Below, in pieces: positions 9,718 to 28,569 of a DNA stretch of 64,000 nucleotides. The translations under genes were made by a program, and so were the position numbers. Numbering within the stretch: position 1 is the first letter of the stretch; each line of letters starts with the position of its first letter. The DNA comes from an uncultured Candidatus Saccharibacteria bacterium. GTDB taxonomy: Bacteria > Patescibacteriota > UBA1384 > DTJR01. The DNA is taken from contig CAZOJE010000001.1 of assembly GCA_964580065.1 (NCBI GenBank), positions 23,717-87,716 of the forward strand, in the 5' to 3' direction. The notes under the pieces were generated by a model, which was not told the origin of the DNA, ran no database searches, and worked only from the letters and a program-made list of their open reading frames with translations.

Positions 9718-9724
9718 ATTTCAC

Positions 9725-9801
9725 GCCCCTGTAGCTCAACTGGATAGAGCGCCTGGCTTCGGACCAGGAGGTTGTGGGTTCGAGTCCTGCCAGGGGTACC
9801 A
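9725..9801 (+). tRNA. tRNA-Arg (anticodon TCG)
   Basis: GCCCCTG-TA-GCTC-AACTGGATA-GAGC-G-CCTGG-CTTCGGA-CCAGG...TTCGAGT...CAGGGGT-A-CCA. Confidence 0.85.
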
Positions 9802-9906
9802 GACAATTTGGTTCTTGGCGACCGGAATGCCGTCATCGCCAAAAATCGACAGGTTAACGACAAAAATAAAAAATGGCTCAAAAGCCATTTTTTATTTGAT
9901 CAAATC

Positions 9907-10458
9907 TCAAAGTAGCTTATTAGTCCTTAATAGCTTATCGATTGATGCCTTGCATCGCATTGCGAGTTCCTCGGCTTCAATTGCCAAACCATTATTTTCT
10001 CCGACAAGTCGTGAAATTCCAAGAGATGGTAGAGGCGATCTTATCCCAACATAAAGTCGGCTATATGGCGGCACACCGATAGGTGCAGAACCTATTGTGT
10101 AACCAATGCCAACTCGTTCGATATCCATATCCTCACTGACCGATGCTCGCTTGGGATCCAGCTTGAGATGCTTAGTTGCATTTGCCAGGTCTCTTGCCCA
10201 TCTGAGTTCAGGGTCTACTTGGTAATACTTATTTACAATGTTTCGTTTTCTTTTGGGAACGCTCGGATCTTTGGTTATCCAATCTCTCAAACTAAGGCAA
10301 TCTTGAAAAAAATGAATAAAATCATCCTCTACTATTTGAATATCTTTTTCAAAACCATAATATGGGAGCTTAGGCTCATCTCCCCATTGCGAATGAGCAA
10401 TGCACTTTTCGTATGAGCGTAACATTCGTTCGTATTGTTCTTTAAATCCTCGTTCCAT
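9907..10458 (-). CDS. hypothetical protein (island cargo)
   Basis: Uninterrupted 183-aa ORF adjacent to the recombinase. No recognisable family. Confidence 0.5.
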   Translation of the reverse strand: MERGFKEQYERMLRSYEKCIAHSQWGDEPKLPYYGFEKDIQIVEDDFIHFFQDCLSLRDWITKDPSVPKRKRNIVNKYYQVDPELRWARDLANATKHLKLDPKRASVSEDMDIERVGIGYTIGSAPIGVPPYSRLYVGIRSPLPSLGISRLVGENNGLAIEAEELAMRCKASIDKLLRTNKLL

Positions 10459-10524
10459 AAGATTAACTTAACAAAAGTACACCACTCTTAACAAGAGTTC
10501 GATTTCTTCTGAAGATTCGGTCTG

Positions 10525-11928
10525 TTAATTGATTACCGACAGTTCCTTATTTCTCAAGCTCATTTTGATCTTAAGGCAGCTCAGGAGTTCTCGTTTTTCC
10601 TCTCTTGCTCCCTCGCGAAGCACAAACTTTGAGTAGTCTCTAAGATCTACTTTGTTATCTAAATCCTTGCTGATTTTTTGTTTTAGGATTTTCGACATAA
10701 ATCTCTCGTATCTATTTATCTCCGACTGTAAATGCTTTTGAGTATTAAGCGTATCGACATTGATATCATCAATAATTTTACAAATTTGTTCTGTAATCTC
10801 TTCTTCTCTTACATACGGCTGTTTACAATTTCGGTCTTTGCCACCAGTGCAGTGATAGTAGACATATCTTCTGATTACGCCATTATCTTGCCTTTTGAAC
10901 TTTTCTTCAGCTGTAACACCTGATCCGCAAACTCCGCAGAAAATGAGCTTGGTAAAGTCAAACTCTTTAGTTCCTGGCTTGGCTCTTGGAGCTACCACTA
11001 ATCTTTCCTGAACTTTATCAAATAGCTCTTTTGTAATGATTGATTCATGTCCGGCTTGATACCAAATTCCAGCACCTCTCGGGTATTCAAATGAACCGTA
11101 GTAGTAATGATTATTCAAAATTGCATAAATTGAACTTAATACCACTGGTTTTCCTTGCCTGGTTCTAAAATTGATTGAATTAAGCCAGTTTAATATTGTC
11201 CGGCCACTTTCACCATTTAAGGATCGCTCAAAAATCTCATGAATTACTGGTGCACGTTCAGGATCTAAGAATATTTTTTTGTATCCCTTTTTACCGCCAA
11301 TTTCATTCACATATCCTAGCGGTGGAGCACAGGGTCTGAATCCCATTTCACATTTGGCCTTAAGGCCTCGTTTTACATTAATAACCTTGTTGTCATTTTC
11401 GAGCTTCGCTTGGCTTCCTAAAATCATCAATAAGAACTTGTCATTCGGTGAATTAGTGAATATTTGATTGTAAGTTCTTATCTCAACAAGATAATTTTGG
11501 TCCATCAGATCTACCAAGGTTCCCAAATCACCAGCGTTTCTGCTTAATCTATCTGGTGCCCAGGTCAGAATACCTTGAATCTTGTCAGCCCGAATATCTT
11601 TGATTATAGACATGAATACTGGCCGTTCGGCCGAGTTTTTAGCTGAATGACTTTCTTTTCTGATATCAGCAACCTCCAAGCCATCCCGATCGGCGACCGC
11701 TAACATCTCTTTGAGCTGAGAATCGATGGAAAGAGCCTGTAATTCGTCTCTTTCGGTTGATTTACGAGCATAAAGGCAGAACTTGATCTTCTTATTTCCT
11801 GGCAGTATTGCTTCCATGGTAGGAGGGAAGGTACCGCAAGGGCTGGGCATGTCAAGCTCATTAAATGACTTTACAACAGGAGTAAATCTGCTAACATTAA
11901 GGTTGTTAATTGTACATTTTGAATACAT
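10525..11928 (-). CDS. large serine recombinase (resolvase/invertase N-terminal catalytic domain + recombinase domain + zinc ribbon)
   Basis: FCLYARKSTERDELQALSIDSQ matches the catalytic Y-x-R-x-S-T ... S-x-x-x-Q motif. LTWAPDRLSRN. The C-terminus has C..C...C..C (CGVCGSG...YYHCTGG..C). Confidence 0.85.
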   Translation of the reverse strand: MYSKCTINNLNVSRFTPVVKSFNELDMPSPCGTFPPTMEAILPGNKKIKFCLYARKSTERDELQALSIDSQLKEMLAVADRDGLEVADIRKESHSAKNSAERPVFMSIIKDIRADKIQGILTWAPDRLSRNAGDLGTLVDLMDQNYLVEIRTYNQIFTNSPNDKFLLMILGSQAKLENDNKVINVKRGLKAKCEMGFRPCAPPLGYVNEIGGKKGYKKIFLDPERAPVIHEIFERSLNGESGRTILNWLNSINFRTRQGKPVVLSSIYAILNNHYYYGSFEYPRGAGIWYQAGHESIITKELFDKVQERLVVAPRAKPGTKEFDFTKLIFCGVCGSGVTAEEKFKRQDNGVIRRYVYYHCTGGKDRNCKQPYVREEEITEQICKIIDDINVDTLNTQKHLQSEINRYERFMSKILKQKISKDLDNKVDLRDYSKFVLREGAREEKRELLSCLKIKMSLRNKELSVIN

Positions 11929-12100
11929 TGCCTAAACCTTAGAAATTTTCTAAGGCATGGCATAAAATCCTTCGCAGATAATGAGCTCGTCGTCAGAGCA
12001 TCTGCGAAGGTTGTGATCCGAAAGGATTGCAGGTAGCCGTAAAAAGCTATCGCTGGCGGCGGGCTTTTTGTATCCGCTTCCGGTTAATCGAGGCAAGAAA

Positions 12101-13240
12101 ATGAAAATATTACATTTAAATCCGGATAAGAAATGGGTTCCGGTTGAAAAGCGATACTATAACGATGAAGCTCAACTTCAAGATCTCTTAACAAACGATG
12201 TTAACACTCTTCCGCTTGATGAAATAGGGTATGATTCCAAATTCGTCACAATAGGAAAGGAAGTAATCCTTCAAAATGGTGCGCTGGATGTTTTGGCGGT
12301 CAGTCCTCAAGGCCACATTGCTTTGATTGAAACAAAGCTCGAGAAAAACCCCGAAGTAAAGAGGACAGTCGTCGGTCAAATCCTCGGTTATGCCGCCTAT
12401 CTTTGGAATAAATCTTATGAAGAGATTGAAGGTAATTGTTTTAGAAAATTCCTACTCCAGCGTAAGGTCAATTTTCAAGGTTCGTTGTGTGAATATATGA
12501 AAGAGAAGATAGGAGAGGAGAATTTCTCAGAATCTGAATTCAAAGAAGGCCTGGAAAAGCGGCTTCGTCTCGGCAGTTTTACTCTTCTGATTGTTGTCGA
12601 TCAGGCCAATCAAGAGCTTAAAGATATCGCTAACTACCTGAATGATCGAACTGGGCAAGAAATCGACTTCTATGTGGTAGAGATGCAATTGGTTGGTGAT
12701 GAACAAGAGCATTTTTTGATACCCAGTCTAGCCAACCCTCCACGAAAAAATATTACCTACTCTGAGAAATCCAAGTCTAACGACAGCTATGATCGAACAC
12801 CGATTGCCAAAGAGGACTTTATAAAATTATTATCACAAAATGGCAAGAGAATTGCCGAAGCACTCCTTGGAAAATTTGAGGCAAGGGATGATGTAGATAT
12901 TGTTTGGCGCAAGAATGGATTCTCGCTGATGGCTAAGTATCCGAAGGATTTTGCCGTACCTGGTTATTCCACAAAATTTTCATTCTTATTTTTTAAGGCT
13001 CCTTCAAATGAACAAGACAGCGAGGAGCTTCAGTTTGGTTATTGCGAATGGCCCTATGAAAACATTCCCAAGCTCAAACCATTTATTGATGAATATGTTA
13101 GTTTCTATCGAACTATGCCTGGATACGACGCAAAACGTAAAACAACTAATGCGTTCAATGAATTTACCGTAGAACAGCAGAATAAATTTATTGGTCTCAT
13201 AGAGGAATCAGCTCGAGAATTAAAATCAAAAGTTTTATAA
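12101..13240 (+). CDS. PD-(D/E)xK nuclease-like hypothetical protein (NucS/DUF91-type motif in the N-terminal domain)
   Basis: ALDVLAVSPQGHIALIETKLEKNPEVKRTVVGQILGYAAYL fits the D...E.K core plus the Q-x-x-x-Y of NucS/DUF91-type restriction-endonuclease-fold proteins. The remaining 280 aa are unassigned. Confidence 0.5.
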   Translation: MKILHLNPDKKWVPVEKRYYNDEAQLQDLLTNDVNTLPLDEIGYDSKFVTIGKEVILQNGALDVLAVSPQGHIALIETKLEKNPEVKRTVVGQILGYAAYLWNKSYEEIEGNCFRKFLLQRKVNFQGSLCEYMKEKIGEENFSESEFKEGLEKRLRLGSFTLLIVVDQANQELKDIANYLNDRTGQEIDFYVVEMQLVGDEQEHFLIPSLANPPRKNITYSEKSKSNDSYDRTPIAKEDFIKLLSQNGKRIAEALLGKFEARDDVDIVWRKNGFSLMAKYPKDFAVPGYSTKFSFLFFKAPSNEQDSEELQFGYCEWPYENIPKLKPFIDEYVSFYRTMPGYDAKRKTTNAFNEFTVEQQNKFIGLIEESARELKSKVL

Positions 13241-13264
13241 ATAGTAATTAAGATTGGGGGAAAT

Positions 13265-13846
13265 ATGGCAAAGCAAACGTTTTCGAAAAAACAGCTTCTA
13301 ATAGCTGTAGGGGCAGCGGTAGTAATCTTTCTGATCGGATTTTATTCAGGAGATGCTTATCGCGTAAATAGAATTAAGAGTGCATTTAACAGCATCGGCT
13401 CGTTAGGCGAATCTCCCGATCTCAATAAAGACAAGAAACTGGTAGAAAAAAAGCTCGGGGAAGAAATCGATATTGTTAAGATGAAACTAACTGTTAATAA
13501 ATCCGAGGAAAAGAATTCCATATCAAGCAAATATGGTGATGCGAAGTCGGCTAAAGATAATGCAAAATTTGTCGTAGTAGATTTATCTGTTACAAACTCA
13601 ACTGATAGTGAATTTAACTTTTCTCCGAATAACACACTTCAACTGGTTGATAATCAGAATAGAAAGTATAAAACATACGACGACTCAATTGGCACAGTCG
13701 ACAACTATCTAGATGTGCGTGAACTATCACCAAGCATTGCCGAATCGGGCGTTCTCGTTTATGAGATTCCAAACGATGCCAGTAATTACTCACTTTGGAT
13801 CGATAAAGATGGATCTAGCGACAGATTCCAAGTCGGCCTAAAGTAA
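13265..13846 (+). CDS. membrane-anchored DUF4352-like protein
   Basis: N-terminal TM helix. KFVVVDLSVTNSTDSEFNFSPNNTLQLVDNQNRKY...GVLVYEIP pattern. Confidence 0.6.
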   Translation: MAKQTFSKKQLLIAVGAAVVIFLIGFYSGDAYRVNRIKSAFNSIGSLGESPDLNKDKKLVEKKLGEEIDIVKMKLTVNKSEEKNSISSKYGDAKSAKDNAKFVVVDLSVTNSTDSEFNFSPNNTLQLVDNQNRKYKTYDDSIGTVDNYLDVRELSPSIAESGVLVYEIPNDASNYSLWIDKDGSSDRFQVGLK

Positions 13847-13923: not shown

Positions 13924-16900
13924 ATGAAAGAAGAGCTAAAAGATATAAAAAGTAATATCGAGATTATGAATCTCATTAGGTATTGCCAAGGTTATATAAA
14001 GCTTGTTAATCCCTCGTTCAATAGATTCAGAATAAATTCTGACCCTATCGAAGAAAAATATCTAAGTACCGATATTCTATATCAAGACAGCGATGAGGAA
14101 GATGAATTTGAAATAAATCTGACAGAGTTTTACGAGAATGACCCTAAAAACGTTCCTGAAGAAGCAAAAGAAGAATATGCACAGCAAAAAGAACTCGCGC
14201 AACAGCTCGAGCAGATTAAGAATCGTTTTAATATAAGTGAGTACACAAAGCAGGTTAATCTCAATTTCGGATATTTTAAGGTAGAAGTGCCCGAACCGGA
14301 AGTAGATGAATTCTCTGAAGATGATACGGAGGAGAATAAGCCCAAGAAGAAAAAATCCGATATTTATCCATTATTCTCTTTACCAATTGAAGTTATAGTC
14401 GACAGGAAGTTTTCGATAAAATTGAAGGATGTGAATATTATTCCAAATATCGGTTTCTTATTCGATGTCCTTGGCGAAGAAAAATTTTATGAATTTGCTG
14501 ATTTTATAAACAAACAAGAGATAGAAGGAGCCCTCAGACTTCCGATACAAAAAAGAACTATCGATAACATATGGGCTGAGTTGAAAGCCAAACTTAAGCT
14601 TTCAGAAGCAATTTTTGACGAAAAGTCATTCGATCCTGATTTCTTTCTAGTTTCTCTTTCAGGCAAATCGAATTATTTCCTAGAGCAAGATTTTAATTCT
14701 TTGCTACAACTTGAAGAAACGGAATTTGAAGATACTTCACTGAGCAGCTGGAATACGGATGATCAACTATCAATAGATGAGCCAGTTAATGAACGAGACG
14801 GCGAATTATTTTTTCCATTTCCATACAATAAAGATCAGGTTGGCGTTCTATCTGCAATTAAAAATAAGGCTTGTATTGTAGAGGGACCTCCAGGCACAGG
14901 TAAATCTCAAACGATTGCAAATCTGTTGTGTCATTTTGCTGCAAATGGCAAAAGAGTGTTGTTCCTTAGCCAAAAAGCTCAAGCAATTAAGGTTGTGAAG
15001 GATTACTTAAAAAAACTAGATGTTCAATATCTTTATGGTTATATACCAAATAGATATTCCAGTCTCTATAATAGTGAAGAAGAAAGGGACGGTGCTTCAA
15101 TTTCATTACAATCAATTCATTTATATCTCAACTCATTAGCCTATGATGCTACTGATCAGACAGAAGAAGATCCAAGATCTATAAAATTTGAAGTTGAAGA
15201 TAAAATAAACGAAACCATAGAAATTGAAAGGAAAATTTACAGTACCTATCAAGAAAAAGAAGCATTAGAAAAATATAACATTGTAGCACTTGATTTTCAT
15301 AAGTTTAATAGCTCGGATGATGATGAAATATTACAACTTTTGGAATTAGATCAAACTATTGATGAGCTAAAGAGACAACTAGATAAATATTATTCGGAAA
15401 ATTCCAAGTATGTAATAAGGTTAAATAAATTGTTCGCAAATATTGATACGAACAATAGTCATTACTCTTTAGCAATCAACGGAGTAATAAACGATATACC
15501 GCAGAATGCATTTGAAAGGGATGGATTGATTCAAAATTTAAAAAAACAACTTATCAAGAACCATTTGAAAAAATATACAAATACCTTGCCGAAAGAAGTT
15601 TACAGTTTTTTTCAAGAGATAATAGATAAATCCACCTCAAGAGCAGAGAAGATAAAAGAACTAAATGGGTTAAAGGATTATTTCAGCTTTTGTGAAAATA
15701 CAATAAAGAATGAGTTGGATCATGTCGACTTTAATGGGCGACTAGAACGGATTGGTCTCAACCAGAAAAGTTTTAATAAACTTAAAAAAATTGTTAGCTC
15801 CGATCAGCATGGATTGGAAAATATACGAAGATACTCGCAAGTTCACTCAGAGATCGAAGAAATTAAACTTAGTAATCCGAATGAGCTAAATAAATATTTG
15901 CATAAAATACAGGATGCGGAAGGAAAGTATATTGCGAATTATCTTCAAAATATAATAATCAATAATCTTAGGGAGATCACTAAAAATGCGACGATCAAAG
16001 GAATCTTGGCAAGAATCGCTAAGAGCTTACAAAAGAGCAAGAAAGCATATAAGACATTCGACAAGTTTAAAAACGAGCCGATCAATTTTTATGTTATGAG
16101 AGAAGCGGTTCCTATCTGGATCATGGACTTGGAAGATGTAAGCAGGCTCATACCACTAGAAAAAAACTTATTCGATTATGTAATTCTCGATGAGGCCTCA
16201 CAATGCAATATCGCATATGCAATGCCTGCAATGTTCAGAGCAGAGAGAGCAATTTTGGTTGGTGATAGTGAGCAGATGAGGGACGACTCAGTAAGGTTTA
16301 AAACTAATAAGTCTTTGGAAATGCTGGCTAAAAAATTTGATATTCCCGACTTCTTGCAGATAAAGGCTATTGGAGATTCAGTTCAGTCAATTATTGATAT
16401 CGGTTACAAGAGAGGCTTTATGATGAAGCCATTAACTTATCACTATAGGTCGCCTAAAGAGCTTATCGGATTTTCAAACGATAATTTCTATGCGCCAAAA
16501 GGTAAAAAATTAAAGGTAATAAACACTAATTATCTGACCTATAAAGATACGAATAGAGTTTTAGTTAATCACATCATAAAACCAAGCAAGGAATTAGACA
16601 TTTCCAGCAAGTCGAATATTGCAGAAGCCAAATATATTTGCAAATTAGTAGAAGAGCTCAAAACAGATCCTAAGACAAAAAATAAGTCCATAGGGGTTCT
16701 ATCCTTCTTTGCTAATCAGGCAGCTCTTTTGAGAGATATGATAAAAGATGAAAAAATTAAAGTTTCTATTATTGAAGGAATCCAGGGAGACGAGAAAGAT
16801 ATAATTATTTACTCAATGGTAATTTGCGACCCAGGTCAAAAAAGAATGTATATTCCCCTAACTGGTGAAGGCGGAGAAATAAATAAAGGATTAAACGAAG

Positions 16901-18039
16901 GTCGAGTAAATGTTGCCTTTTCACGAGCAAGGCAGCAAGTTCATATCGTCACAAGTTTACCGGTAGAAAAATGGTCGGATGGAATCTGGATTAAAAGATA
17001 TCTTGAACATGTTCAAAAAAATGGCGAGGTAGATTTTTTTGAAACTGAGCTGAAGCCATTCGACTCTAAATATGAAGAAGATTTCTATCAAGAGATTTTA
17101 CGAGCCAATTTCACAAAAGGTTATATTATCCAAAATCAAGTTGAAAGCTGTGGATTTAAAATCGATTTCGTTCTAACAAATGTAGATAATGGAAAACAGT
17201 TGGCAATTGAATGTGACGGACCAACCCATTTTGAAAGTGAAGATGAAGGCGTTTATGTTCAGAGCGATTTCGAAAGACAGGCAATACTAGAAAGCGCCGG
17301 CTGGGTTTTTTATAGAACTAATTATGCCGATTGGATAAATAGGAATTTTAATCGAGCAACAATCACAGACGATATAAGTAGACACTTCGAGCTTTCAATA
17401 TTCAATAGCGAAGAAGATGAATCCACCAAACCGAATAAGGAAAGTGGCGATGAAGTAATCGACATAGATGTTGATGATTTAGAGGCACCCGATCAAAACG
17501 TAAAAGAGGGGAAGATATTCTCCGACACCTCAACTAAACTACCGGAAAAGGCTTTGCATCCCGTTGAGATGAAGATTGAAACAAAGAAAACTCAAAAAGA
17601 AAAATTAAGCGAGAAGAAAGATCGTCCGCACGCGAATAGTTTTAAAGATATATTTAAGTTTCCATTAGGTGGTAAAAGGAAACTTGTGGTTTCATCGTTT
17701 AATGATGACGAAGATTTAATAATTACAGAATATATAGAAACAGATTCCTATACAGGATATACACAGAAAAACATTGTTTTAAGTAAGAAAGACATTTTCC
17801 AGTTTGTTACAAAGTCTAGAGAGGTAATAAAGGACTCTGGAGAAGAAACGGTCCCTTGGCGAGGAAATGAAAAAGAAAAAATTATGATACGAATGATTGA
17901 TGATTCTACTATTGATGTCAGACAATATTTGAATACCAGTTGGTATTCTGGTTATACCAAAAAGGGGTTTAGGCTCGATAGTAAGACGTGGTCTAAATTT
18001 CTTGATGTATTGGAAAAAACAATAAGCCTCACAGAATAA
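13924..18039 (+). CDS. Upf1-like SF1 helicase (AAA_11/AAA_12, COG1112-type) fused to a DUF559/Vsr-like PD-(D/E)xK endonuclease domain, with a C-terminal extension containing a duplicated YTGYTQKNIVL / YSGYTKKGFRL module
   Basis: Walker A VEGPPGTGKSQT. Walker B VILDEASQ. Motif III/IV region YHYRSPKELIGFSNDNFY. Motif VI VAFSRARQQVHIV. Then KIDFVLTNVDNGKQLAIECDGPTHF...ERQAILESAGWVFYR is a DUF559-type nuclease. The acidic N-terminal region of about 300 aa is unassigned. Confidence 0.85.
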   Translation: MKEELKDIKSNIEIMNLIRYCQGYIKLVNPSFNRFRINSDPIEEKYLSTDILYQDSDEEDEFEINLTEFYENDPKNVPEEAKEEYAQQKELAQQLEQIKNRFNISEYTKQVNLNFGYFKVEVPEPEVDEFSEDDTEENKPKKKKSDIYPLFSLPIEVIVDRKFSIKLKDVNIIPNIGFLFDVLGEEKFYEFADFINKQEIEGALRLPIQKRTIDNIWAELKAKLKLSEAIFDEKSFDPDFFLVSLSGKSNYFLEQDFNSLLQLEETEFEDTSLSSWNTDDQLSIDEPVNERDGELFFPFPYNKDQVGVLSAIKNKACIVEGPPGTGKSQTIANLLCHFAANGKRVLFLSQKAQAIKVVKDYLKKLDVQYLYGYIPNRYSSLYNSEEERDGASISLQSIHLYLNSLAYDATDQTEEDPRSIKFEVEDKINETIEIERKIYSTYQEKEALEKYNIVALDFHKFNSSDDDEILQLLELDQTIDELKRQLDKYYSENSKYVIRLNKLFANIDTNNSHYSLAINGVINDIPQNAFERDGLIQNLKKQLIKNHLKKYTNTLPKEVYSFFQEIIDKSTSRAEKIKELNGLKDYFSFCENTIKNELDHVDFNGRLERIGLNQKSFNKLKKIVSSDQHGLENIRRYSQVHSEIEEIKLSNPNELNKYLHKIQDAEGKYIANYLQNIIINNLREITKNATIKGILARIAKSLQKSKKAYKTFDKFKNEPINFYVMREAVPIWIMDLEDVSRLIPLEKNLFDYVILDEASQCNIAYAMPAMFRAERAILVGDSEQMRDDSVRFKTNKSLEMLAKKFDIPDFLQIKAIGDSVQSIIDIGYKRGFMMKPLTYHYRSPKELIGFSNDNFYAPKGKKLKVINTNYLTYKDTNRVLVNHIIKPSKELDISSKSNIAEAKYICKLVEELKTDPKTKNKSIGVLSFFANQAALLRDMIKDEKIKVSIIEGIQGDEKDIIIYSMVICDPGQKRMYIPLTGEGGEINKGLNEGRVNVAFSRARQQVHIVTSLPVEKWSDGIWIKRYLEHVQKNGEVDFFETELKPFDSKYEEDFYQEILRANFTKGYIIQNQVESCGFKIDFVLTNVDNGKQLAIECDGPTHFESEDEGVYVQSDFERQAILESAGWVFYRTNYADWINRNFNRATITDDISRHFELSIFNSEEDESTKPNKESGDEVIDIDVDDLEAPDQNVKEGKIFSDTSTKLPEKALHPVEMKIETKKTQKEKLSEKKDRPHANSFKDIFKFPLGGKRKLVVSSFNDDEDLIITEYIETDSYTGYTQKNIVLSKKDIFQFVTKSREVIKDSGEETVPWRGNEKEKIMIRMIDDSTIDVRQYLNTSWYSGYTKKGFRLDSKTWSKFLDVLEKTISLTE

Positions 18040-18048: not shown

Positions 18049-18834
18049 ATGTGGTTCTGGATATTTGTAATCGGCGGCATAATTTTATATGCAATTGCTA
18101 ACTCTGGTAAGGAAAAGAGTAAACCAAATATTAGATATTCTTATAAAGTCAGTGAACCTAACTACAACACTGAATACTCATTTAAACCAGCGAAGCCGAG
18201 TGCGCTTCCAGAGAATGATCCCGTTATTGACGCACTGCGAGGATATATAGAGGCGGGCTGGGAAATAAAAATAAGATACTGCAATTCAAGCGGAACTACT
18301 ACTAGCAGAAGGATAAAACCTTTAGAAATTCTGGTATGGAACGGCCAGTATTATTTGAAGGCAGTCTGCCTATTAAGAGAGGAAGAAAGAACGTTTAAAA
18401 TTAAGAGAATACTCGCAATAAACGATGAGAGTATTGAAAAGAAAAGAGAGACAAAGGCTCAATTTATAAGAAGTAGGGTATTGCTTGTTGAAAAAAACGA
18501 GGAAATATTAGCTAGTTGTAAATCTTTTTTGAGAAAAAATAGAATTTCAACTTCAACCGCTCAAGATGGAATTTCAGCTTTAGACAAGGCCGAGAAAGGC
18601 AACTTCGATTTGATTTTCCTCAGTCAAAATATCCCATACGTTAGTGGAATTGAGGTACTCCGCAATATCAAAAAAAGAGGTTTGACTGGAGCGAAAGTAG
18701 TTATGGTAACAACTAAACCAGATGCAAAAATAAAGGAAGAGGCCGAGCGACTTGGTGTAAGCGACTACTTTGTGTTTTCGGATGATTCTAAGGAGGAGCT
18801 TACTTCTGCCCTGGAATATTTCTTATCACAATAA
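18049..18834 (+). CDS. membrane-anchored WYL-domain + response-regulator receiver (REC) fusion protein
   Basis: N-terminal TM helix WFWIFVIGGIILYAIA. WYL domain IKIRYCNSSGTTTSRRIKPLEILVWNGQYYLKAVCLLREEERTFKIKRI. REC domain with VLLVE, FDLIFLS (phospho-acceptor Asp), VVMVTT and KP. Confidence 0.75.
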   Translation: MWFWIFVIGGIILYAIANSGKEKSKPNIRYSYKVSEPNYNTEYSFKPAKPSALPENDPVIDALRGYIEAGWEIKIRYCNSSGTTTSRRIKPLEILVWNGQYYLKAVCLLREEERTFKIKRILAINDESIEKKRETKAQFIRSRVLLVEKNEEILASCKSFLRKNRISTSTAQDGISALDKAEKGNFDLIFLSQNIPYVSGIEVLRNIKKRGLTGAKVVMVTTKPDAKIKEEAERLGVSDYFVFSDDSKEELTSALEYFLSQ

Positions 18835-18840: not shown

Positions 18841-20094
18841 ATGAATAAAATAATCCTACAAATATCTGAGCTCAATAAATTAATATCCGACCATATTAAT
18901 CATCTCGAGGAATTTGAGGTTGAAGCAGAAATTTCCGACTGGAGGCTGTTCGGTGGAAAGCTTTTCTATTTTAAGCTCAAAGACAAAAAATCATCCGTTT
19001 CCGCAATGACAAACATTTTTGAGTTAACAAACTGGAGAGATTTTGAGGATGGCATGTTGGTCCGCGCAAAAATTTCAATAAAGTTCAATCAGCTCAAAGG
19101 CACTCTCTATGCATGGGTCGAGGAAATGAACCCACACGGCGAAGGTGCTTTAAAGATAGCTTTCGAGAAGCTTAGAAAACGTCTCGAAACAGAGGGATTG
19201 TTTTCCCAAGAAAGAAAGAGGCATATTGTTCGTTACCCACAACGCTTAGGACTCATTACCTCCAAGGATGGTGCTGCAATCAAGGATTTCGAAAAGATAT
19301 TAAATTCGAGGATGGGAGGCCTGACTATTTATTTTCATCCCGTCAAAGTTGAAGGGAAAGATGCTGTTCCCAGCATTATTGAAGCTTTTTCTTATTTTAA
19401 CAATTTTAAAGAATCGCTTGATGCTATAGTTTTAATTCGAGGAGGCGGTAGTCTTGAAAATCTTCAGGTATTTAATGATGAGAGGATAGCCCGATGTGTT
19501 GCGGGTTCTCGTTACCCAGTCATTTGTGGGGTTGGCCACGAGCATGATGTAAGTTTGTGTGATTTGTGTGCTGACGTTAGAGCTTCGACACCGTCCAATG
19601 CAGCTGAATTGCTTGTCGAGAACAAGGTCCATACACAGAAGATTATAGACACATCGTTAGATAAAATCAGGGGCATCATCAAATTCAAAATTGGTGGAAC
19701 CTCCCAGCAAATAGAGAGCCATTTATTGTTAATCAGCCACTCCATCAAGAACGAACTTCAAAGTAAAAAACTTATCGTTATCGAAATTAATTCTTCGCTT
19801 TTTCGTTATAAATCACAATTTAGTAATTTTGAGCAACAAATTTCTCAATCAGTTGTATCGATATCAAGAGTATTTGTTCACAGATTAGATATTTCTAAAC
19901 AATACCTCGCTCAAACAGCTGTTTTTCTTAAATCGGTAAGTCCTAAAAATATAATGGCAATGGGATATTCTGTTGTCAAAGACGAAAAACAAAAAATCGT
20001 ACGAGACTCCGAACAGTTAGAAATAGAATCTAACTTATGCGCCTACTTTTTAAAGGGGTCTATTAAAGCTAAAGTAATTAAGAAAGGGGTATAA
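18841..20094 (+). CDS. xseA: exodeoxyribonuclease VII large subunit
   Basis: LGLITSKDGAAIKD...LIRGGGSLENLQVFNDERIARCVAGSRYPVICGVGHEHDVSLCDLCADVRASTPSNAAE matches conserved XseA blocks. Confidence 0.9.
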   Translation: MNKIILQISELNKLISDHINHLEEFEVEAEISDWRLFGGKLFYFKLKDKKSSVSAMTNIFELTNWRDFEDGMLVRAKISIKFNQLKGTLYAWVEEMNPHGEGALKIAFEKLRKRLETEGLFSQERKRHIVRYPQRLGLITSKDGAAIKDFEKILNSRMGGLTIYFHPVKVEGKDAVPSIIEAFSYFNNFKESLDAIVLIRGGGSLENLQVFNDERIARCVAGSRYPVICGVGHEHDVSLCDLCADVRASTPSNAAELLVENKVHTQKIIDTSLDKIRGIIKFKIGGTSQQIESHLLLISHSIKNELQSKKLIVIEINSSLFRYKSQFSNFEQQISQSVVSISRVFVHRLDISKQYLAQTAVFLKSVSPKNIMAMGYSVVKDEKQKIVRDSEQLEIESNLCAYFLKGSIKAKVIKKGV

Positions 20095-20095
20095 A

Positions 20096-20296
20096 ATGCC
20101 AGAAGAAAAGACTTTTGCAGAAAAAATGAAAGAATTAGATACTATAAAGGAAAAATTTGAATCGGGAAATTTCGATTTAGAGAAAGATTTGCCGTTATAT
20201 AAGAGAGCTGTTCAGCTTGCTACCGATTTAAAAGAGCATCTGAATAAGCTCGAGAATGAGATTATAGAGATCGAAGCAAAAAAGGAAAATGAATAA
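20096..20296 (+). CDS. xseB: exodeoxyribonuclease VII small subunit
   Basis: 66-aa coiled-coil protein FAEKMKELDTIKEKFESGNFDLEKDLPLYKRAVQL, immediately after xseA. Confidence 0.85.
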   Translation: MPEEKTFAEKMKELDTIKEKFESGNFDLEKDLPLYKRAVQLATDLKEHLNKLENEIIEIEAKKENE

Positions 20297-21830
20297 AAAA
20301 GATAAAAAGATAACAGCTTCCATTCTTTATGACTATGTTCAGTGCCCACACAAAGTATGGCGGGATGTTTATGGTCCACAAAATGAGAAAATCATCGAGC
20401 CAAATCCTTTTGTAGAGTTGCTATGGCGGAAGGGTATACAACACGAAAAAAGGGTTGTGTTGACCTTTGGCGAATATCTTGATTTAAGTAAGGGAACCCT
20501 GGATGAGCGAATCTCAAAAACCATCGAAGCTCTCAGGGATGAAGTGCCATTGATTTATCAAGGGGTATTAAAACATGAAAATTTACTTGGAATACCCGAC
20601 CTCTTGAAACGCCAGTCTGACGGATCATACATTCCTATCGACATTAAGTCTGGTTCAGCCTTTGAAGGTGGAAGTGATGATGGCGCTGGGGATGAGGGTA
20701 AACCAAGATTACATTATGCAATTCAGCTCTGCTTGTATAATGAACTGTTAAAGAAACTTGGATTTGCAGAGCATGATAAAGGTCAAGTGATCGATATACA
20801 TCACGACCAGGTTGAATATGATCTATCGGCGCCCAAAGGATTAAGAGATAAGACGACTTGGTGGAAAAATTACGAAAAGATAAAAACTGATGTTAGGTTA
20901 CTTATGCTGGACCAGACAAAAAATAAGCCGTCTTATTCGAGTAAATGCAAGTTGTGCCCCTGGTATCAAAGTTGCAAGAGGTGGTGCAAAGAAAATAATG
21001 ATCTGACGAATATTTTTGACATGGGAAGAGCTAGTAGGGATAGAATAAACGAAGACCTCTATATCGAAAATTTAAATGATTTAATGTCGATTGATATTGC
21101 TTCGATAATGCAACAAAAAGAACAAGAAAAAAAGGCAGGAAATAAAACTTTTCTATTTAACATTTCCGACAACACCCTGAAGAAGGCTGTTGAAAGAGCG
21201 AGAATCTCTTTAATAACTAAGATTCCTGTATTATACGAACCGATTGATTTTCCCGATGTGAGTTATGAACTTTTTTTTGACATTGAAGATGATCCGACTC
21301 AGGAATTTGTATATTTACACGGTGTCTATGAGAGAAGAAACGGCGCAGAGCGTTTTCTAGATTTTACGGCTAAAGAAATTAGTCCTGAGGCCGAAAAAGA
21401 GGCATGGGCCAACTTTTGGAAGTATATTGACTCGCTACCACAAGATGATTTTACGGTTTACTATTACACGCATCATGAAAAGACAACATATACCAAAATG
21501 CAAAAGCTCTATCCGGATGTGATATCAGCGGAAAAGATTGAGAATTTTTTTTCAAATCCTAACGTGATCGATTTGTACAAAGTTGTACGATCAAAGACAA
21601 ACTGGCCTGTACCAAGTTATTCACTCAAAGAGATTGCGGTTTACCTCGGCTTTGAATGGCGCGATGAAACACCTTCTGGCGCACTCTCCATCCAGTGGTT
21701 TAATGAGTATATAGAGAAGAAAGATCCTAAGATGTTGGAGAGAATACTGCTCTATAACGAAGATGACTGTAAAGCAACGTTAGTTATTAAGGATGCAATT
21801 AGTAAGTTAAATAATGAGTTGGCTAAGTAA
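20289..21830 (+). CDS. RecB-family nuclease, TM0106 type (Cas4-like PD-(D/E)xK N-domain with Cys cluster + C-terminal RNase H-like exonuclease-fold domain)
   Basis: YDYVQCPHKVW...IPDLL...IDIKSG matches the Cas4/RecB nuclease core. Cys cluster CKLCPWYQSC..C. C-terminal YNEDDCKAT. Confidence 0.7.
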   Translation: MNKKDKKITASILYDYVQCPHKVWRDVYGPQNEKIIEPNPFVELLWRKGIQHEKRVVLTFGEYLDLSKGTLDERISKTIEALRDEVPLIYQGVLKHENLLGIPDLLKRQSDGSYIPIDIKSGSAFEGGSDDGAGDEGKPRLHYAIQLCLYNELLKKLGFAEHDKGQVIDIHHDQVEYDLSAPKGLRDKTTWWKNYEKIKTDVRLLMLDQTKNKPSYSSKCKLCPWYQSCKRWCKENNDLTNIFDMGRASRDRINEDLYIENLNDLMSIDIASIMQQKEQEKKAGNKTFLFNISDNTLKKAVERARISLITKIPVLYEPIDFPDVSYELFFDIEDDPTQEFVYLHGVYERRNGAERFLDFTAKEISPEAEKEAWANFWKYIDSLPQDDFTVYYYTHHEKTTYTKMQKLYPDVISAEKIENFFSNPNVIDLYKVVRSKTNWPVPSYSLKEIAVYLGFEWRDETPSGALSIQWFNEYIEKKDPKMLERILLYNEDDCKATLVIKDAISKLNNELAK

Positions 21831-22785
21831 TTTATTTTCGAGCGAACCTGCTAAAACAAATCAAAACGCTGTTTGCGTTACTAAAAGCGAAATAATTGCT
21901 GGCTCGAGATTTTCTATACCCGAGCCAACTAGGTCGTTGGTTTTTGTAACTGATGATTCTCCCGATAAAGCCCAAGCTCTAGGGCCATCAATAAGGATTA
22001 CTTTCAATCTGGGTAGTCTTGAAACCGAACGGGAGGTTGAAGAAGGAAATATTTTTTCCGAACCTAGCCTAATATGGACAAGACTTCCAATAAAACCAAA
22101 TAGTGATTTAGAAGATAAGCCAATGTATTATCCATGCTATGTCCATCTAAATCCTCTGCAGAGATATCAGTATCTTAGTTGGCTTCAGGACGTTACCAAG
22201 AAGACAAATTTGAGCTATGTCTTTTTATATTATTATGGTCTCGAAAGGCACCTATTGATCGGTGACTATGATAAAGCAGTTGATGAAATACTTAGATTAA
22301 TTAAATATCATGATCATGATAAATTTCGCTACTATGTAATTACACCACTTATCGTTGCCAGCCTGTACAGAAAGAGGGTGGATGTATTCAAAAAGGCTGA
22401 CTTTTTGTCTCGCGAGGTTTCCAATGAAGCACTGATCATGCGAGCCCTACAGAATATTCACTTAAATGCTGATGACTTGATCAAATTATCTTCATCGGTC
22501 GGGTTTAGAAATAAGAGGTATATTCATCAGAAGCCAGAATTATTTAAAGAAATTCTGATTGAAAAAATGCAAGAAGATGAAGCAAAAAGCGTCCCCATTC
22601 TCAATAGGTTCGAAATAAGTCAGCTCCAAAAGGAAAAAATATCTGCTTTTTGCAATCTATCGATCCCGGAGAGATTCAAAAAGCTTGAGACTCCCCAGCT
22701 CTTAAGGAATAAGCGCTTTGAAAAATTAATTTTCAACTTAATAACCGAAACTCACGCAGAAGTGAAGATCAGAAAAGAAGTATAA
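21814..22785 (+). CDS. TerB-N domain-containing protein (hypothetical; conflict-system associated)
   Basis: YYPCYVHLNPLQRYQYLSWLQD...SYVFLYYYGLERHLL matches, as I remember it, the TerB_N signature (Y.FLYlYGLERR). Confidence 0.5.
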   Translation: MSWLSNLFSSEPAKTNQNAVCVTKSEIIAGSRFSIPEPTRSLVFVTDDSPDKAQALGPSIRITFNLGSLETEREVEEGNIFSEPSLIWTRLPIKPNSDLEDKPMYYPCYVHLNPLQRYQYLSWLQDVTKKTNLSYVFLYYYGLERHLLIGDYDKAVDEILRLIKYHDHDKFRYYVITPLIVASLYRKRVDVFKKADFLSREVSNEALIMRALQNIHLNADDLIKLSSSVGFRNKRYIHQKPELFKEILIEKMQEDEAKSVPILNRFEISQLQKEKISAFCNLSIPERFKKLETPQLLRNKRFEKLIFNLITETHAEVKIRKEV

Positions 22786-24413: not shown

Positions 24414-24882
24414 TTTCCTCTCCTTTGGAAGTAATGAGCGTGGCCAGTTCTAGTGCTTTCATAATGCTCTCTTCCTGCTCCTTAGTTAACTCATCTTTTT
24501 TGATTTCTAGACCACCCGATACCTCAAGTTTATTCTTGTAGGCGTTGTGGCGGTGATTGAGCCAATACATCACAGCGGTCAGATTATTATCTTTCATCGC
24601 TGTAATGAGCTTGCTTTCTGCCAAATCATTTATGAATTGGCAACCCTCCTCAATTGCTTTATCACTTGAAGCAGCAAATTTTTTGCTTGCTTTTCGCCAG
24701 CGATAATATGTATTTCGACTGATACCAACTTTTTGGCAAGCGACTTCGATAATTGGGGTTTTGCTGAATTGCTCAACTAGGGTTTTTTGATTTTGCGCAG
24801 TTCTGATCTGAATCTTCGAATCTACATCACTCATTTTGCCTTCTTGATCAGCTCTGACTTTTGCCCGGTGAATTTTTCCCAA
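24382..24882 (-). CDS. putative terminase small subunit (HTH protein)
   Basis: Overlaps the terminase large-subunit start. HTH CQKVGISRNTYYRWRK. Position and size are typical. Confidence 0.5.
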   Translation of the reverse strand: MGKIHRAKVRADQEGKMSDVDSKIQIRTAQNQKTLVEQFSKTPIIEVACQKVGISRNTYYRWRKASKKFAASSDKAIEEGCQFINDLAESKLITAMKDNNLTAVMYWLNHRHNAYKNKLEVSGGLEIKKDELTKEQEESIMKALELATLITSKGEENEKKKEKPNK

Positions 24883-26769: not shown

Positions 26770-26796
26770 CCAAGGAGCTCAACGATATTGTTGTTC

Positions 26797-27315: not shown

Positions 27316-27356
27316 CTTTATTTGCCTGATTCTATTAAATCGCTTATGATTTACTT

Positions 27357-28412: not shown

Positions 28413-28569
28413 TTCTGAATCTTTTTTTATACTGTAACATTGTGTAACATTTCGGATTGAAAAAATCGCCCCTATAAGGTATAGTGATTGAGGTATCAGT
28501 GCTAGACCGGAGTAGGGTACCATTTCTTATATAGTAAATTTTTCTTAAATTTTAACGGCAAGGAGAAGA

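What the first reader, a model, noticed from the sequence alone, without database searches (positions are those of the whole stretch)
9725..13846. Island integrated at tRNA-Arg(TCG) carrying a large serine recombinase, a NucS/DUF91-like nuclease protein and a DUF4352 membrane protein
A tRNA gene is followed within about 100 bp by a hypothetical gene and a 467-aa large serine recombinase (YARKST...SIDSQ) on the opposite strand. Next come a 380-aa protein whose N-domain has a PD-(D/E)xK core like NucS and Shedu, then a DUF4352 protein, then the helicase-nuclease locus. The arrangement is typical of a mobilisable defence island. The 380-aa nuclease-like protein has 280 unassigned residues and may be a sensor or effector in its own right.
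Basis: partly seen in the sequence, partly recalled or inferred. Interest (0 to 1): 0.55.

Follow-up and report, generated by a model that had tools for sequence, protein, structure and literature searches.

The report
Mobile defence island at tRNA-Arg
The finding is the left end of a real 18.7-kb mobile island, inserted by a serine recombinase into a tRNA-Arg gene of a Saccharibacteria-type bacterium. It belongs to an undescribed family of elements that carry a phage packaging module, changeable anti-phage genes and the orphan "LOOT" structured RNA.

Summary
A near-identical relative (L139, 99% flanks) lacks window 9802-28514, so the island is real. It is 18.7 kb, not 4 kb. It is bounded by an 8-bp core, GGGTACCA, which forms the tRNA-Arg 3' end (9794-9801) and recurs at 28515-28522.

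A 97%-identical recombinase sits beside a different tRNA-Arg (CCT) in another metagenome, with 47 identical junction bases. This shows mobility.

The island belongs to a recurrent family in Saccharibacteria and other candidate-phyla-radiation (CPR) bacteria. Its parts are:
- a large serine recombinase next to a tRNA;
- a variable, defence-rich cargo;
- a conserved terminase-large, terminase-small and ParB-methyltransferase module;
- no capsid or tail genes.

Across 108 copies, LOOT has a covarying pseudoknot followed by a U-tract. It has promoter-like −10 sequences upstream and always points into the cargo.

The 379-aa protein has a NucS-like PD-(D/E)xK N-domain. This domain is shared with PADLOC PDC-S11, recently validated as the "Madara" type IV restriction protein. 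Its confidently folded C-domain matches nothing.

A phage-satellite lifestyle and a cargo-controlling role for LOOT are inferences, not results.

The parts
9725..9801 (+). tRNA-Arg(TCG), the integration target (attB side of attL). It stays intact.
   Evidence: ARAGORN; Rfam tRNA. 99.5% identical to L139 up to base 9801.
9794..9801 (+). attL copy of the 8-bp common core GGGTACCA (the last 8 nt of the tRNA).
   Evidence: GGGTACCA occurs only twice on the + strand of the window, at the two junctions set independently by the L139 comparison.
9802..9839 (+). Left end of the island: the P' arm of the recombinase attachment site.
   Evidence: 47 nt (GGGGTACCA plus 38 nt) are identical in L087, next to a different tRNA-Arg (CCT). 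The motif CCAG-N5-6-(G/T)TTTGGNNC follows the CCA of 7 different target tRNAs.
9864..9897 (.). 15-bp bidirectional terminator-like hairpin between attL and the hypothetical gene.
   Evidence: Terminator scan.
9907..10458 (-). 183-aa hypothetical protein. This slot between recombinase and tRNA is variable: L087 has a different gene here.
   Evidence: No Pfam, NCBIfam, PADLOC or PHROG match. Not conserved in L087.
10525..11928 (-). Large serine recombinase (integrase). Probable true start is M38 at 11817.
   Evidence: Resolvase, Recombinase and Zn_ribbon_recom; CcrB/CcrC/XisF-like; phrog_95 integrase 4.5e-70. Homologues have their 3' end facing a tRNA 3' end in at least 10 loci.
11870..11897 (+). 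Promoter-like site (TTTACA-16-TG-TAACAT) upstream of LOOT.
   Evidence: Promoter scan. Conserved in the window's LOOT subfamily. Many other LOOT copies have a TATAAT-like box roughly 25 nt upstream (read by eye).
11929..12071 (+). LOOT structured RNA. The Rfam model covers 11929-12051. The extension adds a pseudoknot strand (12057-12064, pairing with 11985-11992) and a U-tract (12065-12071).
   Evidence: RF03000 at 93.6 bits against a gathering score of 46.4. Fold z = -5.7. In 108 copies all 8 pseudoknot pairs covary and 90.6% of cells are paired; the dominant U-G pair fixes the strand.
12101..13240 (+). 379-aa two-domain protein: a NucS-like PD-(D/E)xK nuclease (about residues 1-215), a linker, and an unassigned C-domain (about residues 229-379). 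It is the first cargo gene after LOOT.
   Evidence: PADLOC PDC-S11 1.3e-17, N-domain only. AF2 pLDDT 86.5. Foldseek top hits are NucS/EndoMS. C-domain model has pLDDT 94.3 and no PDB or BFVD match. About 55 full-length homologues; the source names and record titles available assign them to CPR lineages. 5042 cluster representatives share the N-domain.
13265..13846 (+). DUF4352 protein with an N-terminal membrane anchor.
   Evidence: PF11611 2.4e-15; phrog_806. Follows the nuclease gene in L002, L009 and L010.
13924..18039 (+). 1371-aa SF1 helicase fused to an MTES_1575/DUF559 nuclease (cargo).
   Evidence: AAA_11/12 and MTES_1575. PADLOC PDC-S37 9e-69, Hhe, MkoA/C. Partial NCBIfam ProA and Hhe matches, far below cut-off. 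A 36%-identical homologue occupies the same slot in L004.
18049..18834 (+). WYL plus receiver-domain regulator (cargo).
   Evidence: PF13280 and PF00072; PADLOC WYL.
18841..20296 (+). Exonuclease VII large (18841-20094) and small (20096-20296) subunits, located inside the island.
   Evidence: Exonuc_VII_L 1.3e-67; Exonuc_VII_S 6e-10. Inside the segment missing from L139.
20289..21830 (+). TM0106-family RecB/Cas4-like nuclease with an RNase H-like domain (cargo).
   Evidence: TIGR03491 3.7e-72; PDDEXK_1 and RNase_H_2. A DUF2779 protein occupies the corresponding slot in L003.
21814..22785 (+). TerB_N-domain protein (cargo).
   Evidence: PF13208 5.8e-14; PADLOC SngA 4.6e-13.
22815..24413 (-). 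Terminase large subunit.
   Evidence: phrog_38 4.4e-77; NF033889. 97% identical in L010 and 42-55% in many other LOOT/recombinase loci.
24382..24882 (-). Terminase small subunit (HTH).
   Evidence: phrog_4102, 309 and 4044 terminase small subunit; HTH_Tnp_1_2.
24831..26159 (-). ParB-like nuclease domain fused to an N6/N4 DNA methyltransferase.
   Evidence: phrog_498 4.4e-79; ParB and methyltransferase NCBIfam hits. Always next to the terminase genes.
26367..28412 (.). Four unassigned island genes: 56 aa (26367-26537 -), 86 aa (26509-26769 -), 172 aa (26797-27315 -) and 351 aa (27357-28412 +).
   Evidence: No Pfam or PHROG hits. Inside the segment absent from L139. The 56-aa gene is conserved in L010.
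28423..28522 (+). Conserved right end of the island (P arm), ending in the attR copy of the core GGGTACCA (28515-28522). Contains an outward-facing promoter-like site at 28457-28485.
   Evidence: 92% identical to the L003 right end. The L139 alignment resumes at 28515. Core position. Promoter scan.

Best explanation
**Shown.**
- Window 9802-28514 is an 18.7-kb integrative element. It sits at the very 3' end of tRNA-Arg(TCG), at an 8-bp common core GGGTACCA, and the tRNA remains intact.
- The element's own large serine recombinase lies at the tRNA-proximal end. A 97%-identical recombinase with the same 47-nt junction sits at tRNA-Arg(CCT) in another community, so the element moves between GGGTACCA-ending tRNA-Arg genes.
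- The element belongs to a modular family in Saccharibacteria and related CPR bacteria. The order is: recombinase; the LOOT RNA gene, with promoter-like sequences upstream, pointing away from the recombinase; a cargo region that differs between otherwise near-identical elements; then a conserved, oppositely oriented terminase-large, terminase-small and ParB-methyltransferase module; then a conserved right end.
- The element has no capsid, portal or tail genes.

**Inferred.**
- The recombinase excises the element as a circle. Its own terminase then packages it into capsids supplied by a helper phage. This is a phage-satellite (PICI/PLE-like) lifestyle.
- The cargo protects the host, and so the island, from phages. 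The 379-aa protein would act as a Madara-like nuclease: a C-terminal sensor domain gates a NucS-type PD-(D/E)xK nuclease that cuts foreign, possibly modified, DNA.
- LOOT is transcribed from its own promoter. Either it ends at the pseudoknot/U-tract as a roughly 150-170-nt RNA, or transcription reads through into the cargo. In that way it would control expression of whatever genes lie downstream.
For: **Insertion.** L139 aligns to window 6180-9801 at 99.5% and to 28515-37456 at 98.8%, with the 18.7 kb missing. The core occurs on the + strand only at the two junctions. Island GC is 0.379 against 0.41-0.42 in the flanks.

**Mobility.** The L087 recombinase is 97% identical and lies next to tRNA-Arg(CCT) with a 47-nt identical junction. 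Homologous recombinases abut Asn, Ser, Asp, Gln and Arg tRNAs; in L010 a tRNA-Leu lies about 1.7 kb away, with two ORFs between. A shared P'-arm motif follows the tRNA in 7 loci.

**Family.** The same module order recurs in L002, L003, L004, L006, L008 and L010. L010 shares 92% nucleotide identity over the packaging module and 83% over LOOT-nuclease-DUF4352. Its cargo is different (a STAND NTPase and an HNH protein) and its recombinase is only 49% identical.

**Recombinase linkage to LOOT.** 20 of 41 LOOT loci have a resolvase-domain protein within 5.5 kb upstream, against 2 of 25 downstream.

**Packaging genes** are identified. No structural genes were found in the island.

**Cargo after LOOT elsewhere** includes GmrSD, methyltransferase, PLD/NgoFVII and NERD proteins, and NucS-like nucleases fused to DUF4268 or DUF5655.

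**LOOT.** Score, structure, covariation and a same-strand ORF within about 0-100 nt in most loci that have room.

**Nuclease.**. Madara is described in bioRxiv 10.64898/2026.09.05.749240.
Against: - No circular form or attP junction was observed, and no helper phage was identified.
- No relative of the terminase large subunit was confirmed by a pattern-based scan of IMG/VR, and no LOOT was found there.
- No replication or primase module was recognised in this island.
- The island-free relative is not a clean attB. It carries a 240-bp scar at the site.
- The island contains the housekeeping-type genes xseA and xseB, which is unusual for a satellite.
- The order of the three modules differs between loci (arrangements A-D), and this is not explained.
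- The nuclease's C-domain does not match the C-terminal part of the PDC-S11 models or any solved fold.
- No expression data exist for LOOT.
Confidence: 0.75

Rival explanations
1. The element is a decaying prophage remnant that can no longer move. The terminase and methyltransferase genes are relics, and the region now persists only as a chromosomal defence island.
For: There are no capsid, portal or tail genes. LOOT also occurs in a phage-like region with portal, major head, tail and amidase genes in L062, so cargo-type elements could derive from such phages. Scars of earlier elements lie at the same tRNA site. L025 keeps only the small terminase and the ParB-methyltransferase next to a tRNA.
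Against: The recombinase, both terminase subunits and the ParB-methyltransferase are full-length. They are conserved at 42-97% identity in many loci that all lack structural genes. A 92%-identical packaging module occurs in another genome with different cargo and recombinase, which indicates recent exchange. A 97%-identical recombinase with an identical junction at a second tRNA indicates recent integration. Presence/absence polymorphism between 99%-identical strains also argues for recent movement.
Confidence: 0.2
2. The recombinase acts mainly as an invertase or shuffler. It flips or relocates the LOOT-plus-cargo segment relative to the core genes, giving phase variation of defence gene expression, rather than acting as an integrase.
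For: LOOT plus cargo is found in several positions and orientations relative to the recombinase and the packaging block (arrangements A-D). LOOT always points away from the recombinase side.
Against: No inverted repeats flank LOOT or the cargo in the window. The recombinase gene consistently abuts a tRNA 3' end. The empty site shows clean integration at the tRNA core. The different arrangements come from different lineages, not from variants of one sequence.
Confidence: 0.04
3. The locus is ancestral and syntenic in all related genomes, not an island.
For: Nothing beyond the absence of a long direct repeat.
Against: A strain with 99% identical flanks lacks the whole 18.7 kb. The neighbours to the left of homologous recombinases differ in every genome.
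Confidence: 0.01

Closest known systems
Phage satellites that use a large serine recombinase: PLEs of Vibrio cholerae and serine-recombinase VEIMEs (PMC6002521, PMC9618062)
   Same: A small integrative element (about 18 kb) with a large serine recombinase at one end, packaging-related genes, no virion structural genes, and defence-type genes.
   Different: This element encodes both terminase subunits plus a ParB-methyltransferase. It integrates at tRNA 3' ends, lives in CPR bacteria, carries a conserved structured RNA (LOOT), and has no recognisable replication module. Dependence on a helper phage is not shown.
PICIs and tycheposons: tRNA-targeting islands with cargo or satellite variants (bioRxiv 10.1101/2020.12.28.424599)
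   Same: tRNA-targeted site-specific integration, a modular build with a variable cargo region, arrays of scars at tRNA hot spots, and a small terminase subunit in the satellite-type members.
   Different: Those elements mostly use tyrosine recombinases and leave partial tRNA duplications. Here a serine recombinase leaves only an 8-bp core. No primase or helicase hallmark genes were found. LOOT RNA is present.
Madara (PADLOC PDC-S11), a type IV-like restriction protein of E. coli ECOR34 (bioRxiv 10.64898/2026.09.05.749240)
   Same: A single protein of about 360-380 aa with an N-terminal NucS-like PD-(D/E)xK nuclease whose catalytic Asp is at position 63, then a linker and a C-terminal domain of about 150 aa. 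Located in a defence context. PDC-S11 HMM match at E 1.3e-17.
   Different: Only the N-terminal ~200 profile positions align. The C-domain matches neither the PDC-S11 C-terminus nor any EVE/PUA structure in the PDB. Specificity and activity are untested.
NucS/EndoMS mismatch endonuclease (PDB 2vld, 5gke)
   Same: Best structural match for the nuclease core, with the same D...E-x-K strand arrangement.
   Different: Domain order is opposite: in NucS the nuclease is C-terminal and follows a DNA-binding N-domain. No Pfam NucS match was found. TM-scores are low (0.2-0.34).
LOOT RNA motif (Rfam RF03000; from the comparative screen in PMC5737381)
   Same: A full-length match at twice the gathering score, with all Rfam helices supported by covariation.
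   Different: This analysis adds a 3' pseudoknot strand with a U-tract, promoter-like sequences upstream, and a genomic context (serine-recombinase elements and a phage-like region of CPR bacteria). None of these appears in the text I could read. The supplement of the original paper was not available.

Membership tests
tRNA-integrated genomic island / integrative element | Segment present in one strain and absent from a close relative, with conserved flanks | tested here: met
   L139 has 99.5% and 98.8% identical flanks and lacks 9802-28514.
tRNA-integrated genomic island / integrative element | Site-specific recombinase gene at one end, next to the tRNA | tested here: met
   The recombinase lies about 720 bp from the tRNA 3' end in the window. 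The same layout occurs in at least 10 other loci.
tRNA-integrated genomic island / integrative element | Direct repeat (att core) at both junctions | tested here: met
   GGGTACCA at 9794-9801 and 28515-28522, the only two + strand copies in 64 kb. It is only 8 bp, and no longer repeat exists.
tRNA-integrated genomic island / integrative element | Same element at a different site elsewhere | tested here: met
   L087: 97% identical recombinase at tRNA-Arg(CCT) with 47 nt of identical junction.
Large serine recombinase (integrase type) | Resolvase catalytic domain, recombinase domain and zinc-ribbon domain | tested here: met
   PF00239 2.1e-23, PF07508 2.4e-16, PF13408 9.6e-9; phrog_95 integrase.
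Large serine recombinase (integrase type) | Recombination activity on attP x attB, and a directionality factor for excision | not testable with these tools
   Needs biochemistry. No candidate directionality factor was identified.
Phage satellite (PICI/PLE/VEIME-like) | Integrase plus packaging gene(s), with no capsid, portal or tail genes | tested here: met
   Both terminase subunits are present. No structural families were found among island proteins.
Phage satellite (PICI/PLE/VEIME-like) | Own replication module (primase, helicase or rep) | tested here: not met
   No primase or rep family was found in the island. The only helicase is the defence-type SF1 helicase-nuclease fusion.
Phage satellite (PICI/PLE/VEIME-like) | Helper-phage-dependent induction and encapsidation | not testable with these tools
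   No LOOT and no confirmed terminase-large relative in IMG/VR with these pattern-based scans.
Complete prophage | Virion structural and lysis genes | tested here: not met
   None in 9802-28514. L062, by contrast, has portal, major head, tail and amidase genes after LOOT.
LOOT RNA (RF03000) | Covariance-model score at or above the gathering threshold over the full model | tested here: met
   93.6 bits against 46.4, model positions 1-121.
LOOT RNA (RF03000) | Helices supported by compensatory changes | tested here: met
   38 of 45 pairs change on both sides. Covariation score is 0.447 against 0.172 in shuffles and about 0.1 in slid controls.
Madara / PADLOC PDC-S11 | N-terminal NucS-like PD-(D/E)xK nuclease with a catalytic Asp and E-x-K | tested here: met
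   PDLC04916 1.3e-17 over residues 8-228. D63, E77 and K79 are invariant. NucS is the top Foldseek hit.
Madara / PADLOC PDC-S11 | C-terminal EVE-like modification-sensing domain | tested here: not met
Madara / PADLOC PDC-S11 | Restriction of phages with modified DNA | not testable with these tools
   Experimental.
NucS/EndoMS (DUF91) | Match to the NucS N- and C-domain models, with the nuclease at the C-terminus | tested here: not met
   No Pfam hit even at E up to 10, apart from a spurious Cas6_C hit. PDB profile hit to NucS at E 0.97 only. Domain order is reversed.
Shedu (SduA, DUF4263) | Match to DUF4263 or the SduA model | tested here: not met
   No PADLOC SduA or Pfam DUF4263 hit for the 379-aa protein. 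SduA structure 8ps5 is only rank 13, probability 0.38.

The most novel reading that the evidence does not exclude
LOOT is a functional RNA component of a whole class of serine-recombinase elements and phages of CPR bacteria. It would be made from its own promoter at the head of the late or cargo operon, and its pseudoknot-plus-U-tract would decide whether RNA polymerase stops or reads on. This would resemble put-like processive antitermination or a factor-gated terminator. One conserved RNA would then control whichever defence or virion genes have been swapped in downstream. That would give the orphan LOOT family its first function and reveal a portable RNA 'expression cassette head' for mobile defence cargo.
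Probability: 0.25. Interest if true: 0.75.

Novelty: new variant of a known kind. Interest (0 to 1): 0.62.

Why it matters
CPR bacteria such as Saccharibacteria are ultra-small episymbionts, and I found no description of elements like this in them in the papers I searched. This analysis gives four things.

- A precisely bounded, recently mobile island with reconstructable attP and attB sites. The serine recombinase targets tRNA 3' ends, which could be useful as a new integrase/att pair.
- A recurrent element family that combines a recombinase, a full terminase pair and exchangeable defence genes. These are candidate phage satellites of CPR bacteria.
- The first genomic context for the orphan LOOT RNA, plus an extended structure with a pseudoknot and U-tract. 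This makes its function testable.
- A diverged relative of the newly validated Madara nuclease with a different, unassigned sensor domain.

Tried and rejected
- **Long att repeat.** A search for the tRNA 3' end (26 nt, up to 3 mismatches) found only the tRNA itself. General repeat finding over 9-30 kb gave only chance-level pairs. An ungapped scan with the attL 86-mer, in both orientations, over 12-40 kb found nothing convincing. The 8-bp core became visible only after the empty-site comparison.
- **Family searches on the 379-aa protein.** Pfam (also at E up to 10), NCBIfam and PHROGs gave no match, and PDB sequence search gave nothing significant. The PADLOC SduA hit belongs to the receiver domain of the WYL regulator, not to this protein.
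- **"LOOT is the leader of the nuclease gene."** Rejected. LOOT was found upstream in 10 of 11 distinct loci of the nuclease family that were checked (L014 lacks it; L012 gave no Rfam match but does not hold the upstream region). However, only about 7 of 117 LOOT copies are followed by that family; the rest precede unrelated genes.
- **"LOOT guides the recombinase to its tRNA target" (bridge-RNA-like).** The longest matches between a LOOT and its own tRNA target are no longer than for mismatched pairs (mean 7.7 against 7.5 nt).
- **LOOT in viral contigs.** The strict pattern gave 0 hits. The loose pattern gave 22 hits that cover only the 5' 45 nt of the model. The 10 hits checked with Rfam do not reach the gathering score.
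- **Terminase-large relatives in IMG/VR.** None were confirmed.
- **The 102 nt at 28423-28524 as an RNA gene.** No Rfam match. It is the conserved right end of the island.

Full report
**1. Observation**

- tRNA-Arg(TCG) lies at 9725-9801.
- A 183-aa ORF with no family match lies at 9907-10458 on the minus strand.
- A 467-aa large serine recombinase lies at 10525-11928 on the minus strand. It has Resolvase, Recombinase and Zn_ribbon_recom domains, is CcrB/XisF-like, and matches the PHROG integrase family.
- A protein with a PD-(D/E)xK core lies at 12101-13240. It is 379 aa; the ATG is at 12101.
- A DUF4352 protein lies at 13265-13846.
- A 1371-aa helicase-nuclease lies at 13924-18039.

It lies at 11929-12051 on the plus strand and scores 93.6 bits against a gathering score of 46.4. 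It fills the gap between the recombinase and the nuclease gene.

**2. The island and its boundaries**

Repeat searches based on the tRNA 3' end found nothing. The decisive evidence came from a relative.
- The flanking YhgE/Pip-type membrane protein (6960-8981) has a 99%-identical copy on JGI contig Ga0116243_10009122, fetched as L139.
- L139 aligns to window 6180-9801 at 99.5% and to window 28515-37456 at 98.8%. The 18,713 bp between are absent.
- The sequence GGGTACCA forms the last 8 nt of the tRNA (9794-9801) and recurs at 28515-28522. These are its only two plus-strand copies in the 64-kb window.
- Island GC is 0.379, against 0.418 and 0.410 in the flanks. The cargo part is 0.357.

The island therefore spans 9802-28514. 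It includes exonuclease VII (xseA and xseB), a TM0106 nuclease, a TerB_N protein, a phage packaging module and four unassigned genes, as well as everything in the original finding.

L139 is not a clean empty site. Between the tRNA and the right flank it carries 240 bp made of two scars. One ends in a degenerate copy of the island's right-end motif (CTAGACCGGACTTGGGTGCCA). The other ends in a 20-bp copy of the tRNA 3' end. The first scar unit also follows the right end of the related island in L003. The tRNA-Arg site is thus a repeatedly used hot spot.

**3. Mobility and the recombinase**

- Metagenome locus L087 carries a recombinase 97% identical to the window's, but next to tRNA-Arg(CCT).
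- The two tRNAs differ through most of their length. From GGGGTACCA onward, 47 nt are identical: GGGGTACCAGACAATTTGGTTCTTGGCGACCGGAATGCCGTCATCGC. That stretch is the core plus the element-borne P' arm.
- Homologous recombinases (49-62% identity) have their 3' end facing the 3' end of tRNA-Asn, -Ser, -Asp, -Gln or -Arg genes in at least nine other loci. In L010 a tRNA-Leu lies about 1.7 kb away, with two ORFs between.
- The bases after the CCA share a motif in seven of these loci: CCAG-N5-6-(G/T)TTTGGNNC.
- A short common core without a long duplication is what established large serine integrases produce. This last point rests on general knowledge of that family.

**4. The element family**

Contexts of homologues of the 379-aa protein and of 120 LOOT copies from metagenomes show three recurring modules.
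- The recombinase.
- LOOT followed by same-strand genes.
- A block of terminase large subunit, terminase small subunit and ParB-N6/N4 methyltransferase. The window's copies match phrog_38 at 4e-77, small-terminase PHROGs, and phrog_498 at 4e-79.

In the window and in L002, L004 and L010 the order is recombinase(-), LOOT(+), cargo(+), packaging block(-). Other lineages have the packaging block between recombinase and LOOT, or have no cargo at all (L108).

L010, from a Saccharibacteria genome, shares 92% nucleotide identity with the window over the packaging block and 83% over LOOT-nuclease-DUF4352. Its cargo is different: an HTH-STAND NTPase, a 221-aa protein and an HNH protein. Its recombinase is only 49% identical. 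This is a modular element with an exchangeable cargo slot.

A census supports the layout.
- 20 of 41 LOOT loci with at least 4 kb upstream have a resolvase-domain protein within 5.5 kb upstream. Nineteen of these also have the recombinase domain, and two further loci have tyrosine integrases.
- Nine proteins in that upstream set match N6_N4 methyltransferase and seven match ParB.
- Only 2 of 25 loci have a resolvase downstream.

The first genes after LOOT are extremely diverse: 80 clusters among about 100 proteins. They include GmrSD, a DNA methyltransferase, a PLD/NgoFVII protein, a NERD protein, NucS-like nucleases fused to DUF4268 or DUF5655, and DUF4352 proteins. In one contig (L062) LOOT precedes a portal, major head protein, tail protein and amidase. 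LOOT therefore also occurs in a phage-like region, at the head of the structural genes.

The window's island has no structural genes. The best reading is a phage-derived, satellite-like integrative element that kept integration and packaging functions and carries defence cargo. The closest known analogues are PLEs, serine-recombinase VEIMEs, PICIs and tycheposons. Helper dependence is inferred, not shown.

**5. LOOT**

- The region folds far better than shuffled sequence (z = -5.7).
- Aligning 108 non-identical copies showed that conservation continues about 20 nt beyond the Rfam model.
- The 5' strand inside the long hairpin (GCUCGUCG, 11985-11992) pairs with CGGCGGGC (12057-12064). All 8 pairs change on both sides, and 90.6% of cells are paired. 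The commonest pair at one position is U-G in 84 copies, which fixes the strand.
- This helix crosses the long hairpin, so it is a pseudoknot. It is followed directly by UUUUUGU.
- By eye, many copies have a TATAAT-like box roughly 25 nt upstream and an ACAAYTWAAT-type leader. The window has TTTACA-16-TG-TAACAT at 11870-11897.
- In most loci with room, a same-strand ORF starts about 0-100 nt after the RNA.

LOOT thus looks like a self-contained transcription unit ending in a terminator-like structure, placed at the head of whatever operon follows. I infer that it controls read-through into the cargo or late genes.

Two alternatives failed. LOOT is not specific to the nuclease gene. It also shows no complementarity to its element's tRNA target beyond background.

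The searchable literature says nothing about its function. The supplement of the discovery paper is not held.

**6. The 379-aa protein**

- It has about 55 full-length homologues at 42-88% identity. The few source names and record titles available assign them to CPR lineages (Saccharibacteria, Berkelbacteria).
- Its N-terminal ~210 residues belong to a very large superfamily: 5042 cluster representatives at E ≤ 1e-3. Most are 350-390 aa, with differing C-termini.
- The AF2 model (pLDDT 86.5) shows two domains joined by a disordered linker at residues 218-227.
- The best PDB matches are NucS/EndoMS (2vld at E 2.5e-3, probability 1.0; 5gke), then Exo5. SduA is weak. A profile search of PDB sequences finds only NucS, marginally, aligned on the catalytic strand.
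- The only family-library match is PADLOC PDC-S11, at 1.3e-17 over residues 8-228.
- A 2026 preprint shows that PDC-S11 of E. coli ECOR34, renamed Madara, restricts T4-like phages with glucosyl-hmC DNA. It has an N-terminal NucS-like nuclease that is inactivated by D63A, and a C-terminal EVE-like domain. The window protein has its invariant Asp at the same position 63.
- Neither it nor its relatives align to the C-terminal half of the main PDC-S11 model, PDLC04916. Its C-domain, modelled alone at pLDDT 94.3, has no Foldseek match in the PDB or BFVD.

I therefore file it as a Madara-like nuclease with a different, unassigned sensor domain. It works like Madara with moderate confidence, but membership is not established.

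**7. Verdict**

It is wrong in extent and in the expected att signature, and the family labels (DUF91, Shedu) do not hold.

What is really there is an 18.7-kb, recently mobile, tRNA-targeting serine-recombinase element. It belongs to a previously uncharacterised, LOOT-bearing family of CPR bacteria with a swappable defence cargo.

This is a new variant of a known kind. The most interesting open point is what LOOT does.

Noticed in passing
window 4312-4450; partial copy at 35830-35912; L139 8941-9180: A GC-rich, strongly structured sequence of about 145-170 nt (fold z = -5.2) lies directly after tRNA-Arg(TCT). A partial copy lies upstream of tRNA-Lys(CTT), and another copy lies inside the scar at the tRNA-Arg(TCG) site of the island-free relative. 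It has no Rfam match. It is either the ends or scars of another tRNA-targeting element, or an unknown tRNA-linked RNA.
   Followed up: partly
L139 8941-9180; L003 18093-18190: The tRNA-Arg site carries tandem scars. A 68-bp unit ends in a degenerate copy of the island's right-end motif plus core. A further piece of about 170 bp ends in a 20-bp copy of the tRNA 3' end. The same 68-bp unit follows the right end of the related island in L003. This indicates repeated integration and decay at the site.
   Followed up: partly
window 18841-20296: Exonuclease VII large and small subunit genes, normally housekeeping, lie inside the mobile island between a WYL-receiver regulator and a TM0106 nuclease. 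Whether the host has another copy is unknown.
   Followed up: no
window 28457-28485: A good sigma-70-like promoter (TTGAAA-17-TATAGT) lies in the conserved right end of the island. It faces outward toward the host methyltransferase gene at 28570. In the circular form it would instead read across attP, antisense to the recombinase operon.
   Followed up: no
L062 (JAANMX010003782.1) 3635-12800: Here LOOT sits in a phage-like region. Upstream are an ATPase/clamp-loader-like protein and an HNH protein. Downstream are portal, major head (SU10-type), tail and amidase genes. This contig may be a phage or prophage related to the elements described here.
   Followed up: partly
L144-L165 (IMG/VR contigs): 22 viral contigs carry a hairpin module of about 45 nt, GCCTAAACC-N-GGCATGGCA, identical to the 5' domain of LOOT but without the rest of the RNA. 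Several give near-identical scores, which suggests a separate recurring motif rather than chance.
   Followed up: partly
L010 and L011 (contig CAZAOT010000002.1, 283 kb): One Saccharibacteria genome carries two elements of this family about 210 kb apart on the same contig. Their nuclease proteins are 88% and 65% identical to the window's.
   Followed up: no
window 6960-8981: The gene just left of the tRNA cluster encodes a YhgE/Pip-type membrane protein, followed by a TetR regulator. In other bacteria the Pip family is known as a phage infection protein (from general knowledge, not tested here). It is a chromosomal neighbour of the island, not part of it.
   Followed up: no
window 12085-12093 versus 11928-11933: In the minimum-free-energy fold, the 5' end of LOOT (UUGCCU) pairs with AGGCAA, which overlaps the Shine-Dalgarno sequence of the nuclease gene. 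This is an alternative to the Rfam P1 helix. It is conserved only in the closest relatives (window, L002, L087).
   Followed up: no
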